Assembly (NCBI GenBank): GCA_020693165.1
Contig: JAIMJQ010000007.1
Coordinates: 1 to 51,275, forward strand
Length of the DNA stretch: 51,275 nucleotides
Origin: Xanthomonas sp.
GTDB lineage: Bacteria; Pseudomonadota; Gammaproteobacteria; Xanthomonadales; SZUA-5
Direction: 5' to 3'
A program made the translations under genes and the position numbers. Shown one piece after another: positions 1 through 20,443 of this stretch (the first letter of the stretch is position 1; the number at the start of each line of letters is the position of its first letter). Below the pieces are notes generated by a model that ran no database searches, was not told the origin of the DNA, and was given only the letters and a program-made list of their open reading frames with translations.

Positions 1-690
1 GAAGTTTCGGCGCGCAGATCGGAAATCAACTTCGCTCAACTCCACTTGGTACTCTCATTACGAGCGTCGTTAGAAGGAGGAAATGAAACTATGTTAGACC
101 AAGCAAAGGCATTGGGTGAGGACATAAACGATCCAACAGTGGTCTCCAAGCTAAAGAAAAAGGCAAATAAGAGTTTTTCTTGCAAAAGCAAGAATGGCGT
201 TCGGGATCTCTACTTGGTTTGCTTCTACCTTGACCTTTTTGACAGGCCAGGGGCAAGTGACGCGATACATTTGCTGACGAAGTGTGGCTTTAGCGGAAAT
301 TTCGATACCTGGAGCTTCATTGAGGCAGGGCTCGCGCTGTCTGCAAGAAGAGAAAGACTTCGCAATAATCCCATCGCTAGAGAGATCGCAATGCAGAGAA
401 TATCGATGGTGGGATTCGTCGATGAACGACTTCAGGGGGTCTTACTACCGAATATTGAGCGGAATCTGGTTAATGCACAACAGGGGAGGCTTGAATCAAC
501 GGATAAGAAAGTAGTGCAGGCTTGTCGGATTTCGGAGATGGGCTGGCGGGAACGGCTTGGTATGGAGTTGAATTTTATTATTGAGCACCTTGTTGGGAAA
601 TCGGATACATCTTCACTCGAAGAAAAACTATCGGAGAACTTAAGCGCGCTCCGATCTCTTTGTGAAACTACGGAAAAGAATGCCGCGTAA
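1..690 (+). CDS. hypothetical protein, 5'-partial, AT-rich foreign-looking gene
   Basis: Frame 1 is open from nt 1 to the TAA at 688-690. The track start at 46 is a TTG, so the gene probably begins left of the window. The sequence is visibly AT-rich with Lys/Glu/Ser-rich codon usage, unlike the rest of the window. No family recognised by eye. Confidence 0.5.
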   Translation, partial: EVSARRSEINFAQLHLVLSLRASLEGGNETMLDQAKALGEDINDPTVVSKLKKKANKSFSCKSKNGVRDLYLVCFYLDLFDRPGASDAIHLLTKCGFSGNFDTWSFIEAGLALSARRERLRNNPIAREIAMQRISMVGFVDERLQGVLLPNIERNLVNAQQGRLESTDKKVVQACRISEMGWRERLGMELNFIIEHLVGKSDTSSLEEKLSENLSALRSLCETTEKNAA

Positions 691-760
691 GGCGAGATTT
701 GTTAGTGCGCAAATCGCGTAAGGCGTATTCCCAGCGAATGCGGAAAGACAGGACACCCTT

Positions 761-801
761 GAATCAGAATTTTCCTACAACTGTCCGGGCACTTTTCCGA
801 C
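761..801 (+). repeat. Junction copy of two repeat modules that elsewhere flank the RAYT gene
   Basis: GAATCAGAATTTTCCTACA (761-779) is identical to 3548-3566. GGGCACTTTTCCGAC (787-801) matches GGGCACGCTTTTCCGAC at 4757-4773 and GGCACTTTTCTGAC at 4783-4796. Confidence 0.7.
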
Positions 802-1596
802 TGCCGACGGCCGCCTGAGCTGCCGATGCTGTGCCCCATGACCTACGCCAGCCGACGAAGTCAAGTCGAAGTCGGGGACACCCACTTTCTGCCCCGTCAA
901 TCCCGGTCGCGCCGGTGAGGCGCGCGCGGCACGGGTGCTGACCGAAGCCAAGGTGTCAGCCCGCGCGCAATCGGCGAGCTTCCAGATGGCGAGGCAAGCC
1001 ATGGATGGCGCGCAGGAAGCGCAGCGTAGCGCAGCGCGCAGGGACAGCCGGTGATTGCGCCGCAGGAGCGGCGCGCATAAGCAAGCGCAAGGATGCGCTG
1101 GCGGCCAGTTGTACATAACGCGGGTTACGCGGGCGCGGCGATTTGAGCGCGGCATGGATGCCGCGCGCCGCGCCGTACAGGCAGGAAGCCTGCGAGTAAC
1201 AACGCGTTATGTCATTGGCCGCCGATAGCCCCGTGAGCCGCCGCCGCTGGCGCGATGCGAAGCGCGAGGTGCCGCGGCGACACGGGGATGGGGGCTTGCA
1301 TACTTTGATCGGAGCCGCAGGCACGCAGGGTGCGCGGCTTGCGCACGCTGCGCGCCTGCTGTCCGGCCTCGTGCACGCGCGGAGCGTGTGCACGCCAACG
1401 CGAGGCAGGACGCCGAGCGTGTTCGGTCGGAGCGTGTGGTTCAACGGAGACGGGCAGGACAGCCCGGAGGCAGCCGGCGCGGCGCTTGCCGCGTAGCGGA
1501 GCGTAGCCGCTGAACGCGGCGCAGTGGAGCGCAGCCTTGCAAGCGCCGTGACGGCGGTGAGGGCGGAGACAGGCGTCGGGTGTCTCGCCACCGCGC

Positions 1597-2382
1597 TTAT
1601 CCGGTCTCGTTTGCTGCCAACACCCTGCCCGCAAACTCTGCGAACAAGTTGCGCATGCTGGTCGCCGCCGACAGCGGTCGACACGTCTCGGTGCCGGCTA
1701 CGCTCAGTTCGAGCGCTGCCGCGCTGTACAGGCGCCGCTCGACCAGGCGCTCGCACAGGAGTTGGTAGCGACGCGCATAGGAGGCGCCGTTGAACTCGGG
1801 GAACACGGGGAAGTGCGGTTCGGCGCAGCGGACGGGTGTCAGTGAGCGCAGGTTTTCTTCGAGCAGCATCAGCCAGCCGACGAACGGCGGTCGTGGGTCG
1901 GCCTGGTAGATCGGGTTGAGCAGCGCGGGCGAGCCTTCGCCGATGTCGTTGCGTGGCGCTGGTCGGTGGCCATAGGCGCCCTGGTGATGCGCGACCCAGA
2001 GGTCGGCAGCGGAGCCGATGACTTCTTCGCTGCGGTTGTTGAAGTTGTTGCCGAACGATCCGACCTGCGACTTGAACTCGAACACGCCGAGCAGGCGTTG
2101 CTTGTGGATGACCACCGCGTCCCAGTCCTTGGTCGCCCGGAAGAACCCCGGCAGCGCCACTTTGGACTTCTTGCGATGGACCGCATCGGTCGGCAGTCCG
2201 CAGTGCGCTGCGACCTGGTCGACCAGGTCAATGAACCCGTTCATGTTCTGGCCGCCGACGACGCCGTCACGCGTTCCGCCTTGTTTGCGCTCGATGGGGG
2301 TTCCCGACCGGCCGGTCCAGAACGTCCGCACGGCAGCGTTCACCCGCTCGTCAAAATCCTCCGGCAACAAGCTCAGCGTCAT
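1597..2382 (-). CDS. type II restriction endonuclease, PaeR7I/XhoI-like (PD-(D/E)xK)
   Basis: 261 aa. Motifs [20 protein letters not shown] and [29 protein letters not shown] match my recollection of the PaeR7I-family REase signature. The ATG overlaps the stop of the upstream methyltransferase ORF (ATGA at 2379-2382). Confidence 0.6.
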
Positions 2383-3458
2383 TCGCGTCGGTTCCTGCGC
2401 TTGGCAGTCACTTGTGCCTCTGCCGCCATCTGGCGCGTGCGTTCGGCATCGTCGGCGGACAGGCCGTAGAGCCGAAACACCGGCTCATCGATAGCCTGCT
2501 GATCCTTGGCGCAGGCGACTTGCGTCAGTTCATCGCGCAATGCCGGCGGCACATCGTGCCAGCGCGGGATGCGGATGCGCCGCAGGTACTGGGCCTGGAA
2601 CCGCAGGAACCCGCCGGACATGCGCGTGCAGTAGGTGGCGACCAGCAGCACGGTCACCGACGAACGCAGCACCGCCTGCAGCGCGCGCAGATCCCATTGC
2701 GTCGAGGTCACGTAATAGAGGTTGTGGTGCGGGTAGAAGTGACCCTCGTCGAGCACGAACGTGGCTTCGCCCTTGATGTCCGGCACCAAGAGCTTCGGCT
2801 GCTGCTGCAGTTCGGGATAAATGCGATCGATGGTGCGATACCAGGCGTCGCCGTTCTTGGTTGCCACGTGACGACCGGCCACGGCCTCATAGTGCTGGTA
2901 GAGATAGGTCGACAGCTTCGGGTAGTCGGCCAGATCGACGACGCCGCCTTCCGCCATAAACGGGTTGACCACACCCTTGCCGCCCCAGCGGATCTGCCCG
3001 TCGACCAGATCGCGCGCCATCACCAGCGGCAGCTTGCGGCTGGCCTCGACCGGCAGCTCGCCGAGTTCGCCGATGTACACGCGATCGCAGCCGGTGGCGA
3101 CGCCGATCCCGACCTTGCAGCCGACCTGTTCCAGCGTCGGGAACTGCTGTTCCAGGCGGCGCACCAGATCCAGGCGCGTCAGATCATCGAGGAGCCAGGG
3201 CGTCTCGCCCGATCCCGCCAGCGAGATCTCGCCGACGATGGCCGCGTCGGCATGCGCGGCGAGCATCGCCGCCACCAACTGCGGCAACCCATGTTCATCG
3301 GTGATGACGCCGGGACGAGCGACCCGCGTGGACGCGGCGGCATCGGTGCTGCCCGCCGCTCGCTGGATCACGGTGATCGCGGGATAGGCGATGACCTCGG
3401 AGTGGAAGGCGTCGATGCCTTCCATGTCGATGTAGTGCTGCAGCGCAAACCCGCGCAC
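2379..3458 (-). pseudogene. N6-adenine DNA methyltransferase, 5'-truncated (only the TaqI_C/Eco57I-like target-recognition half remains)
   Basis: 359 aa with hallmarks of the C-terminal half of gamma-class N6A methyltransferases ([62 protein letters not shown]). No FxGxG or NPPY/F catalytic motifs. The frame hits a stop at 3498-3500, and homology-like sequence stops at about 3480, exactly where a tandem-repeat array begins. The track start is a GTG. Confidence 0.65.
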
Positions 3459-3480
3459 GATCTTGCCGCGCAGTGGGCCA

Positions 3481-3566
3481 CGAACAACAACGGACAGTCA
3501 AGAATCGAACAACAACGGACGAACAACGAACAACAACGGACAGTGAAGAATCAGAATTTTCCTACA
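3481..3566 (+). repeat. Tandem array (CGAACAACAACGGAC-type units, 25-nt unit CGAACAACAACGGACAGTSAAGAAT x2) plus the GAATCAGAATTTTCCTACA module
   Basis: Read directly: 3481-3505 and 3528-3551 are near-identical, with partial units in between. The 19-mer at 3548-3566 repeats 761-779. Confidence 0.8.
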
Positions 3567-3622
3567 TGCCATTGGGCTGATCCCTAACTGCGCCAAAGCG
3601 CCGAAGCGCCGATGCTTCTCCC

Positions 3623-4651
3623 ATGGCTTACGCCCGCTCGATCCTCGTTCCGCCCGGCTTGCCCGGCACCTACCATTGCGTGTCGCGCTGTGTGCGCCGC
3701 GCGTGGCTGTGTGGCGAGGATCGCGGCAGCGGCCGTTCCTACGAGCACAGACGGCAATGGGTCGAAGACAGGATCGGCGAACTCACCGGGATCTTCGCGG
3801 TCGCCGTCTGGGGGTACGCGGTGATGAGCAACCATTTGCATGTGGTGGTGCAGGTGATCCCGCAAGCGGCCGCCGCTTGGTCGACTGAGGACGTGGCCGC
3901 GAGATGGTGTCGCCTGTATCCGCGTCGGGATCAAGACGCCAGCATGCGGGCCGAGGCGCTGGCCGGAAACGAAGGACGGATCAAAGAGCTGCGAGGGCGC
4001 TTGTGCGATTTGTCCTGGTTCATGCGCTGCCTGGCCGAACCGATCGCTCGACGCGCAAACCGCGAGGACGGTTGCAAGGGGCATTTCTGGGAGGCGCGCT
4101 TCAAGTGCCAGGCTCTGCTTGACGAGATGGCAGTGTTGTCGGCGATGACCTACGTCGACCTCAATCCGGTTCGAGCCAGGATCTGCGACAGCCTCGAGGA
4201 GTCTGCGCACACGTCAGCCAGGGTTCGCCTCGACGTGATCGAGAAGGATCGACAGCAGATCGATCAGCCCTTGGCCCCGGTCTTGGGCTTGCGGGGATTC
4301 GGTGTGCTGACGCTCAAGCAGCGCGACTACCTGGAACTCGTCGACTACACGGGTCGCCAGATTCACCCTGGCAAGCGCGGCGCCATTTCCGGCCCGCCGC
4401 CGGCTGCGCTGGCGCGGATCGGTTACACGAAGGATCAGTGGCAACGCCAGGTACTTGCGGTCGGCGCGGGATACTTCCGGGCGATCGGTGCTGCTGACGT
4501 TCTGATCGAGAAAGCGCAGGAAATCGATCAGGCGTGGCTTCGGGGCAACGGCATCGCACGGCAGCTCAAGCTCCGGAGCCGCATGCACGGAACCGCATGG
4601 AATAGAATACTCGACTGTCCGGAGCCCGAAGACCCGATTGTCCGGAGCTGA
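3623..4651 (+). CDS. REP-associated tyrosine transposase (RAYT; IS200/IS605-like Y1 HUH transposase, COG1943-type)
   Basis: 342 aa. HUH motif in AVMSNHLHVVVQV and catalytic-Tyr motif MTYVDLNPVRARI. ATG at 3623. Confidence 0.85.
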   Translation: MAYARSILVPPGLPGTYHCVSRCVRRAWLCGEDRGSGRSYEHRRQWVEDRIGELTGIFAVAVWGYAVMSNHLHVVVQVIPQAAAAWSTEDVAARWCRLYPRRDQDASMRAEALAGNEGRIKELRGRLCDLSWFMRCLAEPIARRANREDGCKGHFWEARFKCQALLDEMAVLSAMTYVDLNPVRARICDSLEESAHTSARVRLDVIEKDRQQIDQPLAPVLGLRGFGVLTLKQRDYLELVDYTGRQIHPGKRGAISGPPPAALARIGYTKDQWQRQVLAVGAGYFRAIGAADVLIEKAQEIDQAWLRGNGIARQLKLRSRMHGTAWNRILDCPEPEDPIVRS

Positions 4652-4796
4652 AGACCAAGAGCCGAAGACCAAGAGCCGAAGACCTACTTCGAAGACCTGC
4701 TTCAAGATGTTCGATGCGCGAATACGCGCAACGACAGGGCGACCGGGACTCCTGCAGGGCACGCTTTTCCGACACCACGCATGGCACTTTTCTGAC
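4627..4796 (+). repeat. Tandem array (GAAGACCAAGAGCC x2 plus GAAGACC partials), conserved TGTTCG core (4707-4752) and GGGCACGCTTTTCCGAC module
   Basis: The array overlaps the RAYT stop codon (4649-4651). The core ATGTTCGATGCGCGAATACGCGCAACGACAGGGCGACCGGGACTCC aligns with 9022-9072 and with the reverse complement of 14369-14426. Confidence 0.8.
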
Positions 4797-4854
4797 AGAC
4801 ACGCCGCGCCGCCGCGAGCATGCTGATTCCACCGTTTCGGGCTACCTGCAAGCA

Positions 4855-6810
4855 ATGACCAACGATCTGCAACGCCAGCTCACCGAGCACTTTGGATTCG
4901 ACGAGTTCCAGCCTGGACAGCGCGAGGTGATCGACAGTCTGCTGGCTGGACGCTCGGCGGCTGCGGTGTTTCCGACCGGGGGCGGCAAGTCGTTGTGTTA
5001 TCAACTGCCGGCGCTGTTGCTGCCCGGCGTGACTCTGGTGGTGTCGCCGTTGATCGCGCTGATGAAGGATCAGATCGATGCGCTCACGCGGCGCGGAATT
5101 GCCGCGCGTCGGCTGGATTCCTCCCTCGATGCAGAGGCCTACCGCGAGGTCATGTCGCAGTTGCGCAGCGGCAGTTTGCGCCTGCTGTATGTGGCGCCGG
5201 AGCGCTTCAACAACGAACGCTTTCGCGCGGCAATGGCGGACGTGCGCATCAGTCTGTTCGCCATCGACGAGGCTCATTGCATCTCCGAGTGGGGACACAA
5301 TTTTCGCCCCGATTACCTGAAGCTGGCCGGGATCGCGCGGGCGCTGAAGGTCGAGCGCGTGCTCGCGCTGACAGCGACGGCGACGCCGCCGGTGCTTGCC
5401 GACATCTGCCGGGTGTTCGAGATCGCGCCCGCAGACGCCGTGCGCACCGGTTTCCATCGCGCAAACTTGCACTTGCTGACTGCCGTGGTCGGCGCGCACG
5501 AACGCGATGCGCGACTGGTCGATGCATTGACGCGCTGTCCGGCGGGCCCCGGCATCGTCTACGTCACCCGCCAGCAGACTGCGGAAGCGCTCAGCGCCAG
5601 GCTGGTCGCGGCCGGGCTGCCGGCACGCGCGTACCACGCAGGGCTGGATGCGTCGCTGCGCAGCGAGGTGCAGGAGTGGTTCCTGGCTTCGCCGAGTGCG
5701 CTGGTGGTGGCGACCATCGCTTTCGGCATGGGTATCGACAAGGCTGATATCCGCACGGTGGTTCATTACAACCCGCCGAAATCGCTGGAGAACTATGCGC
5801 AGGAGATTGGCCGCGCCGGGCGCGACGGACTGCCGTCGGTGTGCCAGATCCTCTACTGCAGCGACGATCTCAATGTGCTTGAGAATTTCGTCTATGGCGA
5901 CACGCCGGACGCCGACGCCGTGCTGGCGCTGGTCGACTCGCTGTTTTCCAGCGGCGAGTCTTTTGATCTGGCGTTGTACGATACGGCCAATCGCTTCGAC
6001 ATCCGCCCGCTGGTGCTGCGCACTCTGCTGACCTATCTCGAGCTCGATGGCTACCTCGAGGAAGGCACGCCGTTCTACGCCGACTACAGCTTTCAGCCGA
6101 TCGTGAGCTCGGCCGACATCCTGGCGCGCTTCGAAGGTGAGCGCCGGCAGTTTCTGGCGCGTCTGCTGGCGCAGGCGAGCAAGCGCCGCACCTGGTTCAG
6201 CATCAATCTCGAAGACAGTGCCCGCCATCTCGGATGCGCACGCGAGCGCATCGTCAAGGCACTCGACTGGCTCGGCGAGCAGCAACTGCTGAAGGTCGAA
6301 GTCGCCGGCGTGCGCAACTGCTTCAAGCGGCTGCGCGAACTCGTCGATCGCGCCGCGCTCGCGGCTGAACTGCACGGACGCTTGCTCAATCGCGAACGCG
6401 CGGAACTCGCCCGGCTCACGCAGGTGCTGGATCTGATCGGCAGCCCGGCGTGCCGCAGCCGGCAGCTCAGCGAACACTTTGGCGAGACCCTGCCGCAGGA
6501 CTGCGGCAGCTGCAGCGCTTGTCTGGGTGAATCTCAGGCTCTGCCGCAACGCGCTGCGCCGTCCATCGATCCTGAGCTTGCCACGCGGCTCGCTCCACTG
6601 CTGCAATCGGCTGGCAAGACACTTGGCAATCCGCGCAGCCTGACGCGCTTCCTGTGCGGTTGCAGCTCCCCCGCACTGACCCGCGCGCGCCTGGCAAAGC
6701 ACGCCCTGTTCGGCGAACTCTGCGATGTGCCGTTTGCGCAAGTACTGGCATGGTCTGAGGTTGTGCTGACGAGCGGTACTTGCGAAGTCCGCGCGCACCA
6801 AGTCTCCTGA
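4855..6810 (+). CDS. recQ: ATP-dependent DNA helicase, RecQ family
   Basis: Motifs FGFDEFQPGQREVI, PTGGGKSLCYQLPALL, FAIDEAHCISEWGHNFRPDY and a C-terminal CGSCSAC. The start is set at the internal ATG at 4855 (MTNDLQ...). The track ORF from 4714 runs through the repeat element. Confidence 0.85.
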   Translation: MTNDLQRQLTEHFGFDEFQPGQREVIDSLLAGRSAAAVFPTGGGKSLCYQLPALLLPGVTLVVSPLIALMKDQIDALTRRGIAARRLDSSLDAEAYREVMSQLRSGSLRLLYVAPERFNNERFRAAMADVRISLFAIDEAHCISEWGHNFRPDYLKLAGIARALKVERVLALTATATPPVLADICRVFEIAPADAVRTGFHRANLHLLTAVVGAHERDARLVDALTRCPAGPGIVYVTRQQTAEALSARLVAAGLPARAYHAGLDASLRSEVQEWFLASPSALVVATIAFGMGIDKADIRTVVHYNPPKSLENYAQEIGRAGRDGLPSVCQILYCSDDLNVLENFVYGDTPDADAVLALVDSLFSSGESFDLALYDTANRFDIRPLVLRTLLTYLELDGYLEEGTPFYADYSFQPIVSSADILARFEGERRQFLARLLAQASKRRTWFSINLEDSARHLGCARERIVKALDWLGEQQLLKVEVAGVRNCFKRLRELVDRAALAAELHGRLLNRERAELARLTQVLDLIGSPACRSRQLSEHFGETLPQDCGSCSACLGESQALPQRAAPSIDPELATRLAPLLQSAGKTLGNPRSLTRFLCGCSSPALTRARLAKHALFGELCDVPFAQVLAWSEVVLTSGTCEVRAHQVS

Positions 6811-6949
6811 ATCGTCTTTCCCGCGAAGGAAATTCGTGCCTGACACGCCTCCCCGGCGGAGACGGCGTCATCGCCAGGCGCAAGCCGCGGAGCGTGCTGG
6901 CCGCAGCTTCGTCCAACGGTGCCGGCTGTAGCGGCTGGCCAAAGAGCGC

Positions 6950-8797: not shown

Positions 8798-8800
8798 ATC

Positions 8801-8818
8801 GGGACTCTCACCGAACAT
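8801..8818 (+). repeat. Isolated terminal segment of the TGTTCG core (GGGACTCTCACCGAACAT)
   Basis: Identical to the reverse complement of 14370-14387. Lies 3 nt after the TrmB-like stop codon. Confidence 0.7.
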
Positions 8819-9021: not shown

Positions 9022-9072
9022 CAGTTCGATGCGCCAATAGGCGCACCGGCCAAGGGCGGCCGGGACTTTCAC
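9022..9072 (+). repeat. Conserved TGTTCG core copy
   Basis: CAGTTCGATGCGCCAATAGGCGCACCGGCCAAGGGCGGCCGGGACTTTCAC aligns with 4707-4752 and with the reverse complement of 14369-14426. Its end overlaps the GNAT stop codon (9069-9071). Confidence 0.75.
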
Positions 9073-14368: not shown

Positions 14369-14426
14369 CATGTTCGGTGAGAGTCCCGGTCGCCCCTGAC
14401 GGTGCGCCTATTCGCGCATCGAACAG
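14369..14426 (-). repeat. Conserved TGTTCG core, most complete copy (58 nt, inverted termini TGTTCGGTGAG / TGCGCATCGAACA-type)
   Basis: The minus strand reads CTGTTCGATGCGCGAATAGGCGCACCGTCAGGGGCGACCGGGACTCTCACCGAACATG. Confidence 0.8.
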
Positions 14427-14432
14427 TGGAGC

Positions 14433-14512
14433 GCACGAGGGCACGAGGGCACGAGGGCACGCAAAGGAAGATTCGGAGCAAGCTTCAGCTCATTCGTGCC
14501 CTCGTGCCCTCG
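14433..14512. repeat. Hairpin with tandem-octamer arms: (GCACGAGG)x3 ... (CCTCGTGC)x2
   Basis: Units at 14433-14456, complementary units at 14495-14512, about 38-nt spacer. Immediately adjacent to the core at 14369-14426. Confidence 0.8.
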
Positions 14513-14542: not shown

Positions 14543-14576
14543 GGCATGTTCGGTGAGGGTGTCTGGCGCACATGCC
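14543..14576 (+). repeat. Partial core-like hairpin GGCATGTTCGGTGAGGGTGTCTGGCGCACATGCC
   Basis: Shares ATGTTCGGTGAG with the core start. GGCATGT and ACATGCC form a stem. Confidence 0.55.
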
Positions 14577-19661: not shown

Positions 19662-20443
19662 GTACCGTCGTCGTCGATTCCGGCGTTGCCAACGTCGGCT
19701 CGGTGGTTGCGGCGCTGGAGCGGTTGCAGGCGAAAGTCATCATCAGTCGCGATTGGGAGGTGATCCGTCAGGCTGCTCGTGTCTTGCTCCCCGGCGTTGG
19801 CGCCGCGGCGGCGGCCATGCGTGAACTCGATCGGCTGGGGCTTGTCGAGCGGCTGCCGACGCTGACGCAACCGGTGCTCGGCGTGTGCCTGGGGATGCAG
19901 TTGATGTTCGAGGGGTCGGAGGAGGGCGGGGAGCTCGAAGCCGGGACTCGGGACTCGGGACTCGGGACTCGGGACTCGGCTGTTCAGAGTGAGAATGCAT
20001 CCCGGCTCGTGCGTGTGAATCTGCCGGATCATCGCGGCAGACTCCCCACTGGCCACCAACCCGAGTCCCGAGTCCCGAGTCCCGAGTCCCGGCGGTTGGC
20101 CGTCCCCTGCCTCGGTATCCTCCCCGGCCACGTTCGCCGCCTTCCCGAATCCCCCGGCGTACGCATCCCGCACATGGGCTGGAACGCGCTGATCCCGCGT
20201 CGACCGCATGCGCTGGTCGCCGGCCTTGGCGAGCGCGACTACGCCTATTTCGTGCACAGCTTTGGCGCCGCCGAGAGCGAGCTGACGCTGATGGCTTGCG
20301 AGCACGGCAGCACCTTCTCGGCGGTCGTCGCGCGTGGCAATTTCATGGGTGCGCAGTTCCATCCGGAGCGCTCGGCTGCTGTCGGGGCGCGCCTGCTCGA
20401 CAACTTCCTCAATCTCGATCTGGAGGCGCTCGGGCGATGTTGA
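19658..20443 (+). CDS. hisH: imidazole glycerol phosphate synthase, glutaminase subunit, with an in-frame insertion of about 57 aa
   Basis: 261 aa against about 200 aa typical. GVCLGMQL (catalytic Cys) and QFHPERS are present. Residues about 92-148 are encoded by a palindromic repeat element. GTG start overlapping the hisB stop. Confidence 0.85.
19943..20090. repeat. Intragenic palindromic element: (GGGACTC)x5, core, (GAGTCCC)x4
   Basis: Five perfect heptamers at 19943-19977 and four complementary heptamers at 20063-20090. The 85-nt centre starts CTGTTCAGAGTGAGAATGCATCCCGG, related to the TGTTCG core start. Confidence 0.85.

What the first reader, a model, noticed from the sequence alone, without database searches (positions are those of the whole stretch)
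3481..4796. RAYT gene embedded between repeat modules that are directly joined at a second site (761-801)
- The 19-mer GAATCAGAATTTTCCTACA ends 56 nt upstream of the RAYT ATG (3548-3566) and is identical to 761-779.
- The module GGGCACGCTTTTCCGAC (4757-4773; second copy GGCACTTTTCTGAC at 4783-4796) lies about 100 nt downstream of the RAYT stop and matches 787-801.
- Around the RAYT the two modules are about 1.19 kb apart. At 761-801 they are 7 nt apart.

This is the pattern expected for an autonomous element and its gene-less derivative, or for an empty-site-like junction. RAYTs are generally regarded as domesticated, immobile single-copy genes. Here the two same-orientation 19-mers also bracket the decayed restriction-modification locus (780-3547), so recombination between copies may have shaped that region.
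Basis: partly seen in the sequence, partly recalled or inferred. Interest (0 to 1): 0.62.

Follow-up and report, generated by a model that had tools for sequence, protein, structure and literature searches.

The report
Mobile Y1 transposase element with leftover ends
The "two repeat modules" are neighbouring blocks of one conserved ~100-base left end that precedes every gene of a multicopy, mobile RAYT-like (Y1/HUH) transposase family, so the second site is a broken-off copy of that end and not an empty site; this is an ordinary insertion-sequence story, though this family's ends had not been described.

Summary
The sequence facts hold. The 19-mer is identical at 761-779 and 3548-3566, and GGCAC..TTTTCYGAC motifs lie at 787-801, 4757-4773 and 4783-4796.

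The reading does not hold:
- In every close homologue, the 19-mer, a 7-nt spacer and the GGGCnnTTTTCYGAC block sit together about 35 nt upstream of the transposase ATG. They form one ~100-nt left end (LE).
- A profile built only from relatives' LEs hits the window three times: 742-843 (E 8e-21), 3529-3625 (E 5e-14) and 4765-4830 (E 5e-5).
- So 742-850 is a solo LE plus four codons of a second copy from a different sub-lineage, cut off at its 3' side.
- 4765-4830 is a third LE fragment.
- The intact gene carries its own diverged module at 3574-3590.

The gene (3623-4651) belongs to TnpA-Y1 subclass 2.3, a TIRYT-like group that is multicopy in many genomes. The element spans about 3481-4707. It is bounded by inverted CGGACAGTC cores that sit in tandem arrays of nested partial end copies.

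A 92%-identical metagenomic relative keeps the methyltransferase gene intact without the element. In the window, homology to that gene stops exactly at base 3481.

The parts
742..850 (+). LE#1: a solo left end/leader of a second, 3'-truncated element copy. It holds the TIR core GGACACCC (751-758), the 19-mer (761-779), the GGGCACTTTTCCGAC block (787-801), CGATGCT, and ATGACCTACGCC (836-847, start plus 3 codons). Homology then ends.
   Evidence: nhmmer with a profile of relatives' leaders gives 742-843, E 8e-21, full model length. Identity is 82-83% to the leaders of L003, L012 and L017 and 69% to the resident copy's leader. Alignment.
856..1020 (+). A short tandem repeat (CGAAGT)n followed by a ~145-nt repeat unit that starts with the TIR-like core GGGGACACCCACTTTCT. 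This unit abuts and truncates LE#1.
   Evidence: TRF reports 856-874. The unit is about 75% identical over ~145 nt to a unit lying directly upstream of the element in L012, from another genome.
1042..1364 (+). A segment bounded by inverted TIR-like cores (GGACAGCCGG ... CCTGCTGTCC). It may be a small non-autonomous relative. A further core lies at 1457.
   Evidence: Core scan. Inverted pairs I23 and I1. This is weak evidence: the arms are 10 nt.
2379..3480 (-). The 3' half of an Eco57I/TaqI-type methyltransferase gene. It is truncated at its 5' side exactly where the element's left array begins. The XhoI-family endonuclease gene (1597-2382) lies downstream of it.
   Evidence: Pfam finds TaqI_C only, plus XhoI for the endonuclease. 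The 92%-identical relative L209 has a 677-aa M protein with Eco57I/N6_Mtase domains and an R gene. Nucleotide homology runs from about 1600 to 3480 and stops at 3481. The reading frame runs on into the array without a start codon.
3481..3552 (+). Left terminal array: three nested partial copies of the element's left terminus, with unit CGAACAACAACGGACAGT(C/G)AAGAAT. TIR-L cores lie at 3491-3505 and 3537-3551.
   Evidence: TRF gives period 25, 3.0 copies, score 98. Direct repeat family D1 and inverted pairs I3 and I5. Homologous arrays lie upstream of all relatives.
3529..3622 (+). LE#2: the left end/leader of the intact copy. It holds the 19-mer (3548-3566), the diverged second block GGGCTGATCCCTAACTG (3574-3590), and CGATGCT before the ATG.
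   Evidence: nhmmer gives 3529-3625, E 4.7e-14. Identity is 79-82% to the leaders of L176, L016 and L014, which share the GATCCCTGAC or GATTTCTGAC variants.
3623..4651 (+). Y1/HUH transposase gene of TnpA-Y1 subclass 2.3 (RAYT-like, TIRYT-like), 342 aa. Motifs are HUH (SNHLHVV), FWEARF and YVDLNPVRA. The 3' end reads through TIR-R because a ~250-nt deletion removed the normal stop codon; relatives are 318-324 aa.
   Evidence: NCBIfam REP_Tyr_transpos 34 bits (cutoff 80) and Pfam Y1_Tnp 16 bits (cutoff 23). Invariant residues are kept. AF2 model pLDDT 77; best fold matches are 4ER8 (TnpA-REP), then IS608 and ISDra2 TnpA. 3'-end comparison.
4605..4707 (+). Right terminal arrays. TIR-R is ATACTCGACTGTCCG (4607-4621), with a degenerate second copy at 4628-4648. 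These are followed by 14-nt and 13-nt tandem units (GAGCCGAAGACCAA)n.
   Evidence: Inverted repeat 3491-3505 / 4607-4621, 15 nt, 87% complementary. TRF reports 4605-4656, 4645-4684 and 4677-4707. Relatives carry GTGGGTGTCC or CGACTGTCC cores with arrays downstream of the gene.
4707..4752 (+). One copy of a different dispersed palindromic repeat (TGTTCGATGCGCGAATACGCGCA...GGGACTC). It lies between the element and LE#3 and is not part of the element.
Evidence: Inverted and direct matches to 9024-9048 and 14394-14425.
4765..4830 (+). LE#3: an internal fragment of a third left end (TTTTCCGACA, 8 nt, GGCACTTTTCTGAC, about 22 nt, ATGCTGAT).
   Evidence: nhmmer gives E 4.7e-5 over model positions 31-97. 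Local alignment scores are 31-39 against 16 +/- 2.2 in shuffles, with 0 of 300 shuffles reaching them.

Best explanation
Identity of the element (shown). The window holds one essentially intact insertion-sequence-like element, about 3481-4707. It belongs to the family whose transposase is TnpA-Y1 subclass 2.3, a long RAYT-like / TIRYT-like HUH tyrosine transposase. The window also holds two fossil pieces of further copies.

Layout of the mobile unit (shown by comparing copies):
- a left array of nested partial end copies;
- the TIR-L core GGACA(C/G)(C/T)C;
- a ~100-nt left end (LE) that also serves as the gene's leader;
- tnpA;
- a 3' untranslated stretch;
- the TIR-R core in inverted orientation;
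- a right array.

The 19-mer and the GGCAC..TTTTCYGAC module are the two best-conserved blocks of the LE. They are direct repeats of TTTTCC(T/G)AC spaced 23 nt apart. They always lie side by side, about 35 nt upstream of the ATG.

The three LE copies in the window (shown):
- 742-850 is a solo LE plus four codons of a copy from another sub-lineage. It is cut off by the next TIR-led repeat.
- 3529-3622 is the LE of the intact copy.
- 4765-4830 is a third LE fragment in front of the recQ-like gene.
The exact 19/19 identity reflects strong constraint on that block, not recent duplication.

Mechanism (inferred):
- The HUH/Tyr enzyme nicks and rejoins DNA at the TIR cores, as its structural relatives TnpA-REP and IS608 TnpA do on single-stranded DNA.
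- The LE blocks are protein-binding and/or promoter sites, not hairpins.
- Repeated abortive end processing builds the arrays.
- Insertion, followed by deletion or recombination between copies, removed the 5' half of the methyltransferase gene.
For: 1. One LE. In 18 of 18 close homologues the order is TIR core, 19-mer-like block, 7 nt, GGGCnnTTTTCYGACTG, about 20 nt, CGATGCT, ATGACCTACGCC. A profile that excludes the window's own copies finds exactly three places in the 51-kb window.
2. Different sub-lineages. LE#1 is 69% identical to LE#2 but 82-83% identical to the LEs of L003, L012 and L017.
3. Protein. The HUH, WE and YVDLNP motifs, a typical length of about 320 aa and a helical insertion match subclass 2.3 of PMC6006769. 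The best fold match is 4ER8, followed by IS608 and ISDra2 TnpA.
4. Mobility.
   - More than 5,900 homologues score E<=1e-60, mostly on short contigs.
   - 15 loci come from one Endozoicomonas chromosome. 12 of them were aligned: they are on average 94% (5') and 88% (3') identical inside sharp boundaries and about 20% identical outside.
   - Identical proteins sit in two different contexts (P0004; P0026).
   - The closest relatives sit at other loci.
   - The intact M gene in L209 has no 19-mer within 13 kb, and its homology to the window ends exactly at 3481.
5. Ends. A 15-nt inverted repeat joins 3491-3505 and 4607-4621. Arrays are reported. The two P0026 copies share the same array units at both sites, with different copy numbers.
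6. Truncated and stacked copies recur elsewhere: L001 (codon 60, plus a solo LE), L016 (LE plus 5 codons, then two full copies) and L191.
7. The assembly graph of the source samples breaks inside the gene. A variant about 90% identical is present at higher depth.
Against: - No transposition event is observed directly. The contigs of the three source runs show no joint that skips the element and no circle junction.
- The window's copy has a 3' deletion and an altered C-terminal tail, so it may be inactive.
- The cleavage sites, the strand used and the target preference are unknown.
- No conserved hairpin was found in the LE, so the IS608/REP recognition mode may not apply.
- About 13 matches to the two-block LE motif lie in other Proteobacteria with no TIR core before them and no transposase gene after them. 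Part of the LE may therefore be a general regulatory motif.
Confidence: 0.82

Rival explanations
1. The 19-mer is the element's left boundary and the GGCAC..CCGAC module is its right boundary. On this view 761-801 is an empty site, or a gene-less derivative in which the left and right ends are joined.
For: The two motifs are 7 nt apart at 761-801. Copies of them bracket the gene at 3548 and 4757.
Against: - The joined arrangement lies upstream of the ATG in all full-length relatives.
- The intact copy has its own second block at 3574-3590.
- 742-850 continues through CGATGCT and ATGACCTACGCC.
- The real right end is the inverted core at 4607-4621.
- Boundaries of identical copies at different sites confirm TIR-to-TIR units.
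- The downstream modules lie outside the right arrays and form part of a third LE fragment.
Confidence: 0.03
2. The conserved two-block segment is mainly a portable promoter or operator used by a host factor. The three copies in the window are then regulatory cassettes, one of which now drives the recQ-like gene, and not remnants of transposition.
For: - The blocks are conserved in sequence and form no common structure.
- LE#3 lies 25 nt upstream of the recQ-like ATG, in the same orientation.
- The same motif pair, without a TIR or a transposase gene, lies upstream of an acyl-CoA ligase gene in both Azonexus and Dechloromonas, and in about 11 other Proteobacteria.
Against: - No sigma-70-like promoter is detected.
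- LE#1 carries the transposase start codon plus three more codons and a TIR core, which marks it as a truncated element copy.
- Several of the matches without a transposase gene are in AT-rich DNA, where chance matches are expected. About 3 matches were my own estimate for random sequence.
- A promoter function and an IS end are not mutually exclusive.
Confidence: 0.1
3. A classical domesticated single-copy RAYT. Its cognate REP would be the palindromic repeat at 4707-4752 (also at about 9024 and 14394). The leader copies would then be chance or local duplications.
For: A hairpin-forming dispersed repeat lies immediately 3' of the element. NCBIfam's best match is the REP-associated tyrosine transposase model.
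Against: - The NCBIfam score is 34 bits against a cutoff of 80.
- The palindrome is on one side only and is absent from the flanks of relatives.
- The family is multicopy with sharp TIR boundaries.
- The subclass is described as lacking REPs.
- The leader copies are highly significant.
Confidence: 0.04

Closest known systems
TnpA-Y1 subclass 2.3 (Quentin, Siguier, Chandler & Fichant 2018, PMC6006769)
   Same: - Protein length of about 320-325 aa.
- HUH motif of the NHxH type, the WE motif, and the YVDLNP tyrosine motif.
- A conserved insertion between the HUH strand and the W motif, and a long C-terminal tail.
- Several copies per genome.
- No REP hairpins beside the gene.
   Different: - The paper reports the subclass mainly in Chromatiales and Alteromonadales and found no IS-type ends.
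- Here the family is in Rhodanobacteraceae/Lysobacterales.
- Clear ends are visible: inverted GGACA-type cores, a conserved ~100-nt left end, and terminal arrays.
- The HUH motif here is NHLH, where the paper gives NHYH.
TIRYT / TIRtron (Di Nocera, De Gregorio & Rocco 2013, PMC3733652)
   Same: - A RAYT-like tyrosine transposase gene flanked by terminal inverted repeats in place of REPs.
- The TIR motif GGGGWSAS is matched exactly by GGGGACAC at 873-880, and in 6 of 8 positions by the TIR cores of the three element copies.
- TIRs also occur as solo or clustered repeats.
   Different: - Most described TIRYTs belong to subclass 2.1, which is shorter and has DnaA_C/HTH-like tails.
- They are single-copy or low-copy.
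- The tandem arrays of nested partial ends and the conserved two-block leader are not mentioned in the passages read.
RAYT / TnpA-REP with REP and REPIN repeats (E. coli 4ER8; Pseudomonas REPINs)
   Same: - HUH/Y1 fold; 4ER8 is the best structural match.
- The YxxxNP class-2 signature.
- The gene is flanked by inverted copies of a short repeat that also occurs elsewhere.
   Different: - The classical proteins are about 150-190 aa, single-copy and vertically inherited, with hairpin REPs carrying GTAG.
- Here the protein is 320-342 aa, the family is multicopy and moves as a whole, and the ends are not hairpins.
IS200/IS605 family (IS608, ISDra2)
   Same: A Y1 HUH transposase as the only enzyme, and a copy-number pattern typical of an insertion sequence. 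The likely chemistry is nicking and joining through a 5'-phosphotyrosine link; this is an inference from the fold.
   Different: - No subterminal hairpins and no tnpB.
- The tyrosine motif is Y...NP, not Y...Q.
- The protein is twice as long.
- Inverted terminal cores are present.

Membership tests
RAYT / TnpA-REP (REPtron) | HUH motif and a catalytic tyrosine in a Y1 transposase fold, with the class-2 signature Y...NP | tested here: met
   SNHLHVV (res. 69-75) and YVDLNPVRA (res. 177-185) are invariant in 26 homologues. The best Foldseek hit is 4ER8 (prob 1.00, TM 0.55 on the target).
RAYT / TnpA-REP (REPtron) | Curated family score (NCBIfam NF047646 REP_Tyr_transpos; Pfam Y1_Tnp) | tested here: not met
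   34.3 bits against a cutoff of 80. 16.4 bits against a cutoff of 23.
RAYT / TnpA-REP (REPtron) | Gene flanked by REP hairpins (palindromes, usually GTAG-tagged) in inverted orientation | tested here: not met
   The flanks are 15-nt inverted cores within tandem arrays. 18 aligned leaders show no conserved pairing. The only palindrome (4707-4752) is on one side and is absent from relatives.
RAYT / TnpA-REP (REPtron) | Single copy per genome and vertical inheritance | tested here: not met
   This was tested for the family, not for the window's own genome. There are 15 loci on one Endozoicomonas chromosome and 2-5 in several Rhodanobacteraceae MAGs. Identical proteins lie in different contexts. 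The window's own genome could not be searched.
TnpA-Y1 subclass 2.3 | Key motifs NHYH / WE / YVDLNP and a median length of about 325 aa | tested here: met
   NHLH (L in place of Y; distant members have NHYH), FWEARF and YVDLNP are present. Relatives are 318-324 aa. The window's copy is 342 aa through read-through.
TnpA-Y1 subclass 2.3 | A conserved ~55-aa insertion between beta3 and alphaC, and a two-part C-terminal tail | tested here: met
   The model has helices at 80-149 between the HUH strand (71-78) and the W-motif strand (161-165), and a helical tail at 198-300. Both are conserved in the alignment. The subclass HMMs of the paper were not available.
TnpA-Y1 subclass 2.3 | Several copies per genome and no REP-like structures beside the gene | tested here: met
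TIRYT / TIRtron | Tyrosine transposase gene bracketed by terminal inverted repeats | tested here: met
   3491-3505 and 3537-3551 against 4607-4621. The same holds in relatives and in the identical-copy pairs.
TIRYT / TIRtron | TIR motif GGGGWSAS | tested here: inconclusive
   An exact match (GGGGACAC) occurs only at 873-880. The cores of the element copies match 6 of 8 positions (CAGGACAC, ACGGACAG).
IS200/IS605 | Subterminal hairpins at both ends, a ~150-aa TnpA with a Y...Q motif, often with tnpB | tested here: not met
   No hairpins. The tyrosine motif is Y...NP and the protein is 320-342 aa. No tnpB lies in the flanks.

The most novel reading that the evidence does not exclude
Subclass-2.3 Y1 transposases may be active insertion sequences with an end architecture not yet described. 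The ends would be non-hairpin inverted GGACA-type cores, each embedded in a self-made tandem array of nested partial end copies, plus a two-block left end.

The same end-processing activity could also seed the dispersed 'core plus tandem-oligomer' repeats and the convergent heptamer arrays. These are seen in this genome (about 14430-14512 and 19930-20100) and were reported without explanation in Xanthomonas.

Solo left ends might in addition act as portable promoters, as LE#3 may do in front of the recQ-like gene.
Probability: 0.2. Interest if true: 0.6.

Novelty: new member of a known kind. Interest (0 to 1): 0.36.

Why it matters
For this locus the result is mostly a correction. There is no empty site. 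What looked like an element/derivative pair is one intact IS-like element plus two fossil left ends. The element's arrival, or recombination between copies, explains why the restriction-modification system has lost the catalytic half of its methyltransferase.

More generally, this long RAYT-like subclass was published as multicopy but 'without IS features'. The comparisons here give it concrete ends: TIR cores, a conserved left end and terminal arrays. That makes its mobility and its unknown DNA-recognition mode testable at the bench. It also warns against calling every 'RayT' annotation a domesticated gene.

Tried and rejected
No count of LE, TIR or tnpA copies in the window's own genome (GCA_017973955.1) was possible.
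- Synteny through the recQ-like gene failed. Its best relatives are only 63% identical and come from unrelated phyla. The upstream region of the best one is unrelated.
- Rfam gave only a sub-threshold RsmY hit at 1001-1074 (22.9 bits against 57), which I dismissed.
- RNAalifold on 18 leaders predicted 0 pairs. I therefore rejected a hairpin or riboswitch-like reading of the LE.
- The sigma-70 promoter scan found 0 sites in 650-4950. By eye, sigma-54, sigma-E, PhoB, DnaA-box and IHF consensus sequences did not fit convincingly; this is my own judgement and was not tested.
- Contigs of the three aquifer runs show no joint across the element or between the two 19-mers. Contigs cannot exclude rare forms.
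- A profile search of PDB sequences gave nothing significant. The fold search was needed.
- A regex test for TIR-like cores (GAC[AT]C[CT]C..AC) across the window found 5 against 3.0 +/- 1.6 in shuffles. This is not enriched, so the link to the other repeat families stays speculative.
- Only L001, L094, L170 and L200 were laid as locus files in the Python box. Other locus sequences were brought in through alignments.
Full report
**Observation**

The 19-mer GAATCAGAATTTTCCTACA is present exactly twice in the 51-kb window, at 761-779 and 3548-3566, both on the + strand. No further match appears even at 3 mismatches, and none is expected by chance. GGCACTTTTCYGAC lies at 788-801 and 4783-4796, and GGCACGCTTTTCCGAC lies at 4758-4773. 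Taken alone, these short modules are not significant: 13-16 of 100 shuffles give two or more matches. The ORF at 3623-4651 (342 aa) is a weak match to Y1_Tnp (16 bits, cutoff 23) and to NCBIfam REP_Tyr_transpos (34 bits, cutoff 80).

**What the two modules are**

I fetched homologues of the protein with their flanks and the other genomic places that carry the exact 19-mer. The result was the same in all of them:
- The 19-mer, a 7-nt spacer and GGGCnnTTTTCYGACTG lie side by side.
- About 20 variable bases, CGATGCT and the start ATGACCTACGCC follow.
- A core GGACA(C/G)(C/T)C and short tandem repeats lie immediately upstream.

The two 'modules' are therefore adjacent blocks of one ~100-nt left end (LE) that also serves as the gene's leader.

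An nhmmer profile built only from the relatives' LEs, with both window copies excluded, finds exactly three places in the window:

| Place | E-value | Extent of match |
|---|---|---|
| 742-843 | 8e-21 | full length |
| 3529-3625 | 4.7e-14 | full length |
| 4765-4830 | 4.7e-5 | model positions 31-97 |

What each place is:
It runs on into the start codon and three more codons (836-847), and there homology stops.
- The intact copy has its own version of the second block, GGGCTGATCCCTAACTG (3574-3590). Its closest relatives share this variant.
- The modules downstream of the gene belong to a third, internal LE fragment just upstream of the recQ-like ATG at 4855.

LE#1 is only 69% identical to LE#2. 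It is 82-83% identical to the LEs of L003, L012 and L017, whose proteins are 64-70% identical to the window's protein. LE#2 is closest (79-82%) to the LEs of the relatives whose proteins are 85-90% identical. The two copies therefore come from different sub-lineages. The perfect 19-mer reflects constraint on that block, which is also exact in four other genomes. It does not reflect recent duplication.

**The element**

The window's intact copy has the following ends:
- Inverted 15-nt cores join 3491-3505 and 3537-3551 (CGGACAGT[C/G]AAGAAT) to 4607-4621.
- The left cores sit in a 3-copy array of period 25 (3481-3552).
- The right core sits in a 2.3-copy array of period 23 (4605-4656), followed by 14-nt and 13-nt tandem units up to 4707.

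The same plan recurs in all relatives: cores such as GGACACCCAC upstream, GTGGGTGTCC downstream, and arrays specific to each copy.

Two sets of near-identical copies fix the boundaries of the mobile unit:
- **Endozoicomonas sp. ALC020.** Twelve aligned copies are on average 94% (5' part) and 88% (3' part) identical inside the unit. The unit runs from AAAAAGACACCCATAAATTT to TTTATGGGTGTCTTATTTTT. Outside it the copies are about 20% identical. One to four tandem core copies lie at the ends.
- **Protein P0026.** This identical protein occurs in two different gene contexts. The shared DNA begins at GGAATACGAGGACAGTCGG. It ends after TTTTTCGACTGTCC plus 3-4 units of GCGTTTCAACTnTCC. The same array units occur at both sites, with different copy numbers.

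The arrays therefore belong to the element. They consist of nested partial copies of its termini.

The window's copy lacks about 250 nt between the normal stop codon and TIR-R. As a result its ORF reads through the right core: it is 342 aa, where relatives are 318-324 aa. All invariant residues are kept.

**The protein**

The motifs SNHLHVV, FWEARF and YVDLNPVRA, the length, the conserved helical insertion (residues 80-149 of the model) and the long tail match TnpA-Y1 subclass 2.3 of Quentin et al. (PMC6006769). That paper describes the subclass as multicopy, recently spreading and without REPs, and it was not placed in any of the Bertels RAYT groups. The AlphaFold model (pLDDT 77) is most similar to E. 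coli TnpA-REP (4ER8) and next to IS608 and ISDra2 TnpA. The inverted cores resemble the GGGGWSAS motif of TIRYT/TIRtron elements (PMC3733652).

**Mobility and the neighbourhood**

Evidence that the family moves:
- More than 5,900 homologues score E<=1e-60, most of them on 1-3-kb contigs.
- P0004 (90% identical to the window's protein) lies next to a beta-lactamase gene in one assembly and next to an acetyltransferase gene in another.
- The 88% and 85% relatives L014 and L016 sit at unrelated loci. L016 has an LE plus 5 codons, followed by two full tandem copies.
- L001 shows a copy cut at codon 60 by the next LE, and then a solo LE.
- Of the roughly 18 TIR-led LEs recovered by pattern search, about 5 are solo or truncated.

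Evidence from the source samples: the unitigs of the aquifer metagenomes break inside the gene and carry a variant about 90% identical at higher depth. They show no joint that skips the element.

A metagenomic relative of the adjacent R-M cassette (L209, 92% identical) has an intact 677-aa methyltransferase plus the XhoI-family endonuclease, and it has no 19-mer within 13 kb. Its homology to the window runs from about 1600 to 3480 and stops exactly at the first base of the left array. So the element, or a deletion or recombination between copies, removed the 5' half of the M gene. The 0.9 kb at 691-1596, which holds LE#1 and further core-led repeats, has no counterpart in L209.

**How it probably works**

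Shown: the anatomy, the conservation, the multicopy state, the insertion polymorphism and the fold.

Inferred:
- The HUH/Tyr enzyme nicks and joins DNA at the cores through a phosphotyrosine link, as its structural relatives do.
- The two TTTTCC(T/G)AC direct repeats, 23 nt apart, are sites for the transposase's extra domains and/or for the promoter. I infer this because they are conserved in sequence but form no common structure.
- Abortive or repeated end processing creates the nested arrays.
- Truncated, stacked copies arise by insertion into, or recombination at, existing left ends.

**Unexplained**

About 13 matches to the two-block motif lie in other Proteobacteria with no TIR core before them and no transposase gene after them. 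One orthologous pair lies upstream of an acyl-CoA ligase gene in Azonexus and Dechloromonas. These may be exapted solo ends, a host regulatory motif, or partly chance.

**Verdict**

- There is no empty site and no left-end/right-end derivative.
- There is a mobile, TIR-bounded Y1 transposase element, with one solo left end and one left-end fragment nearby.
- It is a new member of a known, poorly characterised kind. The definition of its ends is the only modestly new point.

Noticed in passing
window 2379-3480 (- strand) and L209 5047-7859: The methyltransferase of the XhoI-type R-M pair is cut exactly at the element's left array (3481), while the endonuclease gene looks intact. A 92%-identical metagenomic cassette has a full 677-aa M protein. 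An intact R gene beside a dead M gene needs explaining: the R may be inactive, or another methylase may protect the DNA.
   Followed up: partly
window 876-1020 and L012 6590-6735: A ~145-nt unit starts with GGACACCCACTTTCT and ends with GGCAAGCCATGGATGGCGCGCAGGAAG. It is about 75% identical between two genomes and lies next to an element left end in both. It may be a non-autonomous partner repeat.
   Followed up: partly
window 4707-4752, 9022-9072, 14369-14426, 8800-8818, 14549-14566: A separate dispersed palindromic repeat ends in GGGACTCTCACCGAACAT or GACACCCTCACCGAACAT. This ending loosely resembles the element's GGACACCCAC-GAAT terminus. The link was not statistically supported in this window.
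   Followed up: partly
L016 2800-5200 (JBFWOF010000007.1): The layout is an LE plus 5 codons, then two full element copies head to tail, with no right-end core between them. This suggests one-ended or rolling-circle-like duplication, or unequal crossing-over.
   Followed up: no
L007 5540-5620 (Azonexus) and L179 2124-2158 (Dechloromonas): The exact 19-mer (Azonexus) or a near copy (Dechloromonas), followed by a TTTTCYG(A/G)C block, lies about 70 nt upstream of the same acyl-CoA ligase gene. There is no TIR core and no transposase gene.
   Followed up: partly
L201 1250-1440: Upstream of one P0026 copy lies an array of a different core type (ACGAGGACACGCACGTAACGACCGGCG, three copies). Arrays of different element lineages seem to accumulate at the same places.
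   Followed up: no
window 1-690 and 4855-6810: The AT-rich DUF6707 ORF and the recQ-like helicase look like foreign island cargo. The helicase's best relatives are 58-63% identical and mostly from Planctomycetota. The whole stretch 1-6900 appears to be a variable region.
   Followed up: partly
window 3623-4651, protein residues 18-30 and 151: Invariant H18, C23, C30 and C151 and nearly invariant C19 suggest a metal-binding cluster in the N-terminal part of this subclass. I did not see this mentioned in the papers read.
   Followed up: no
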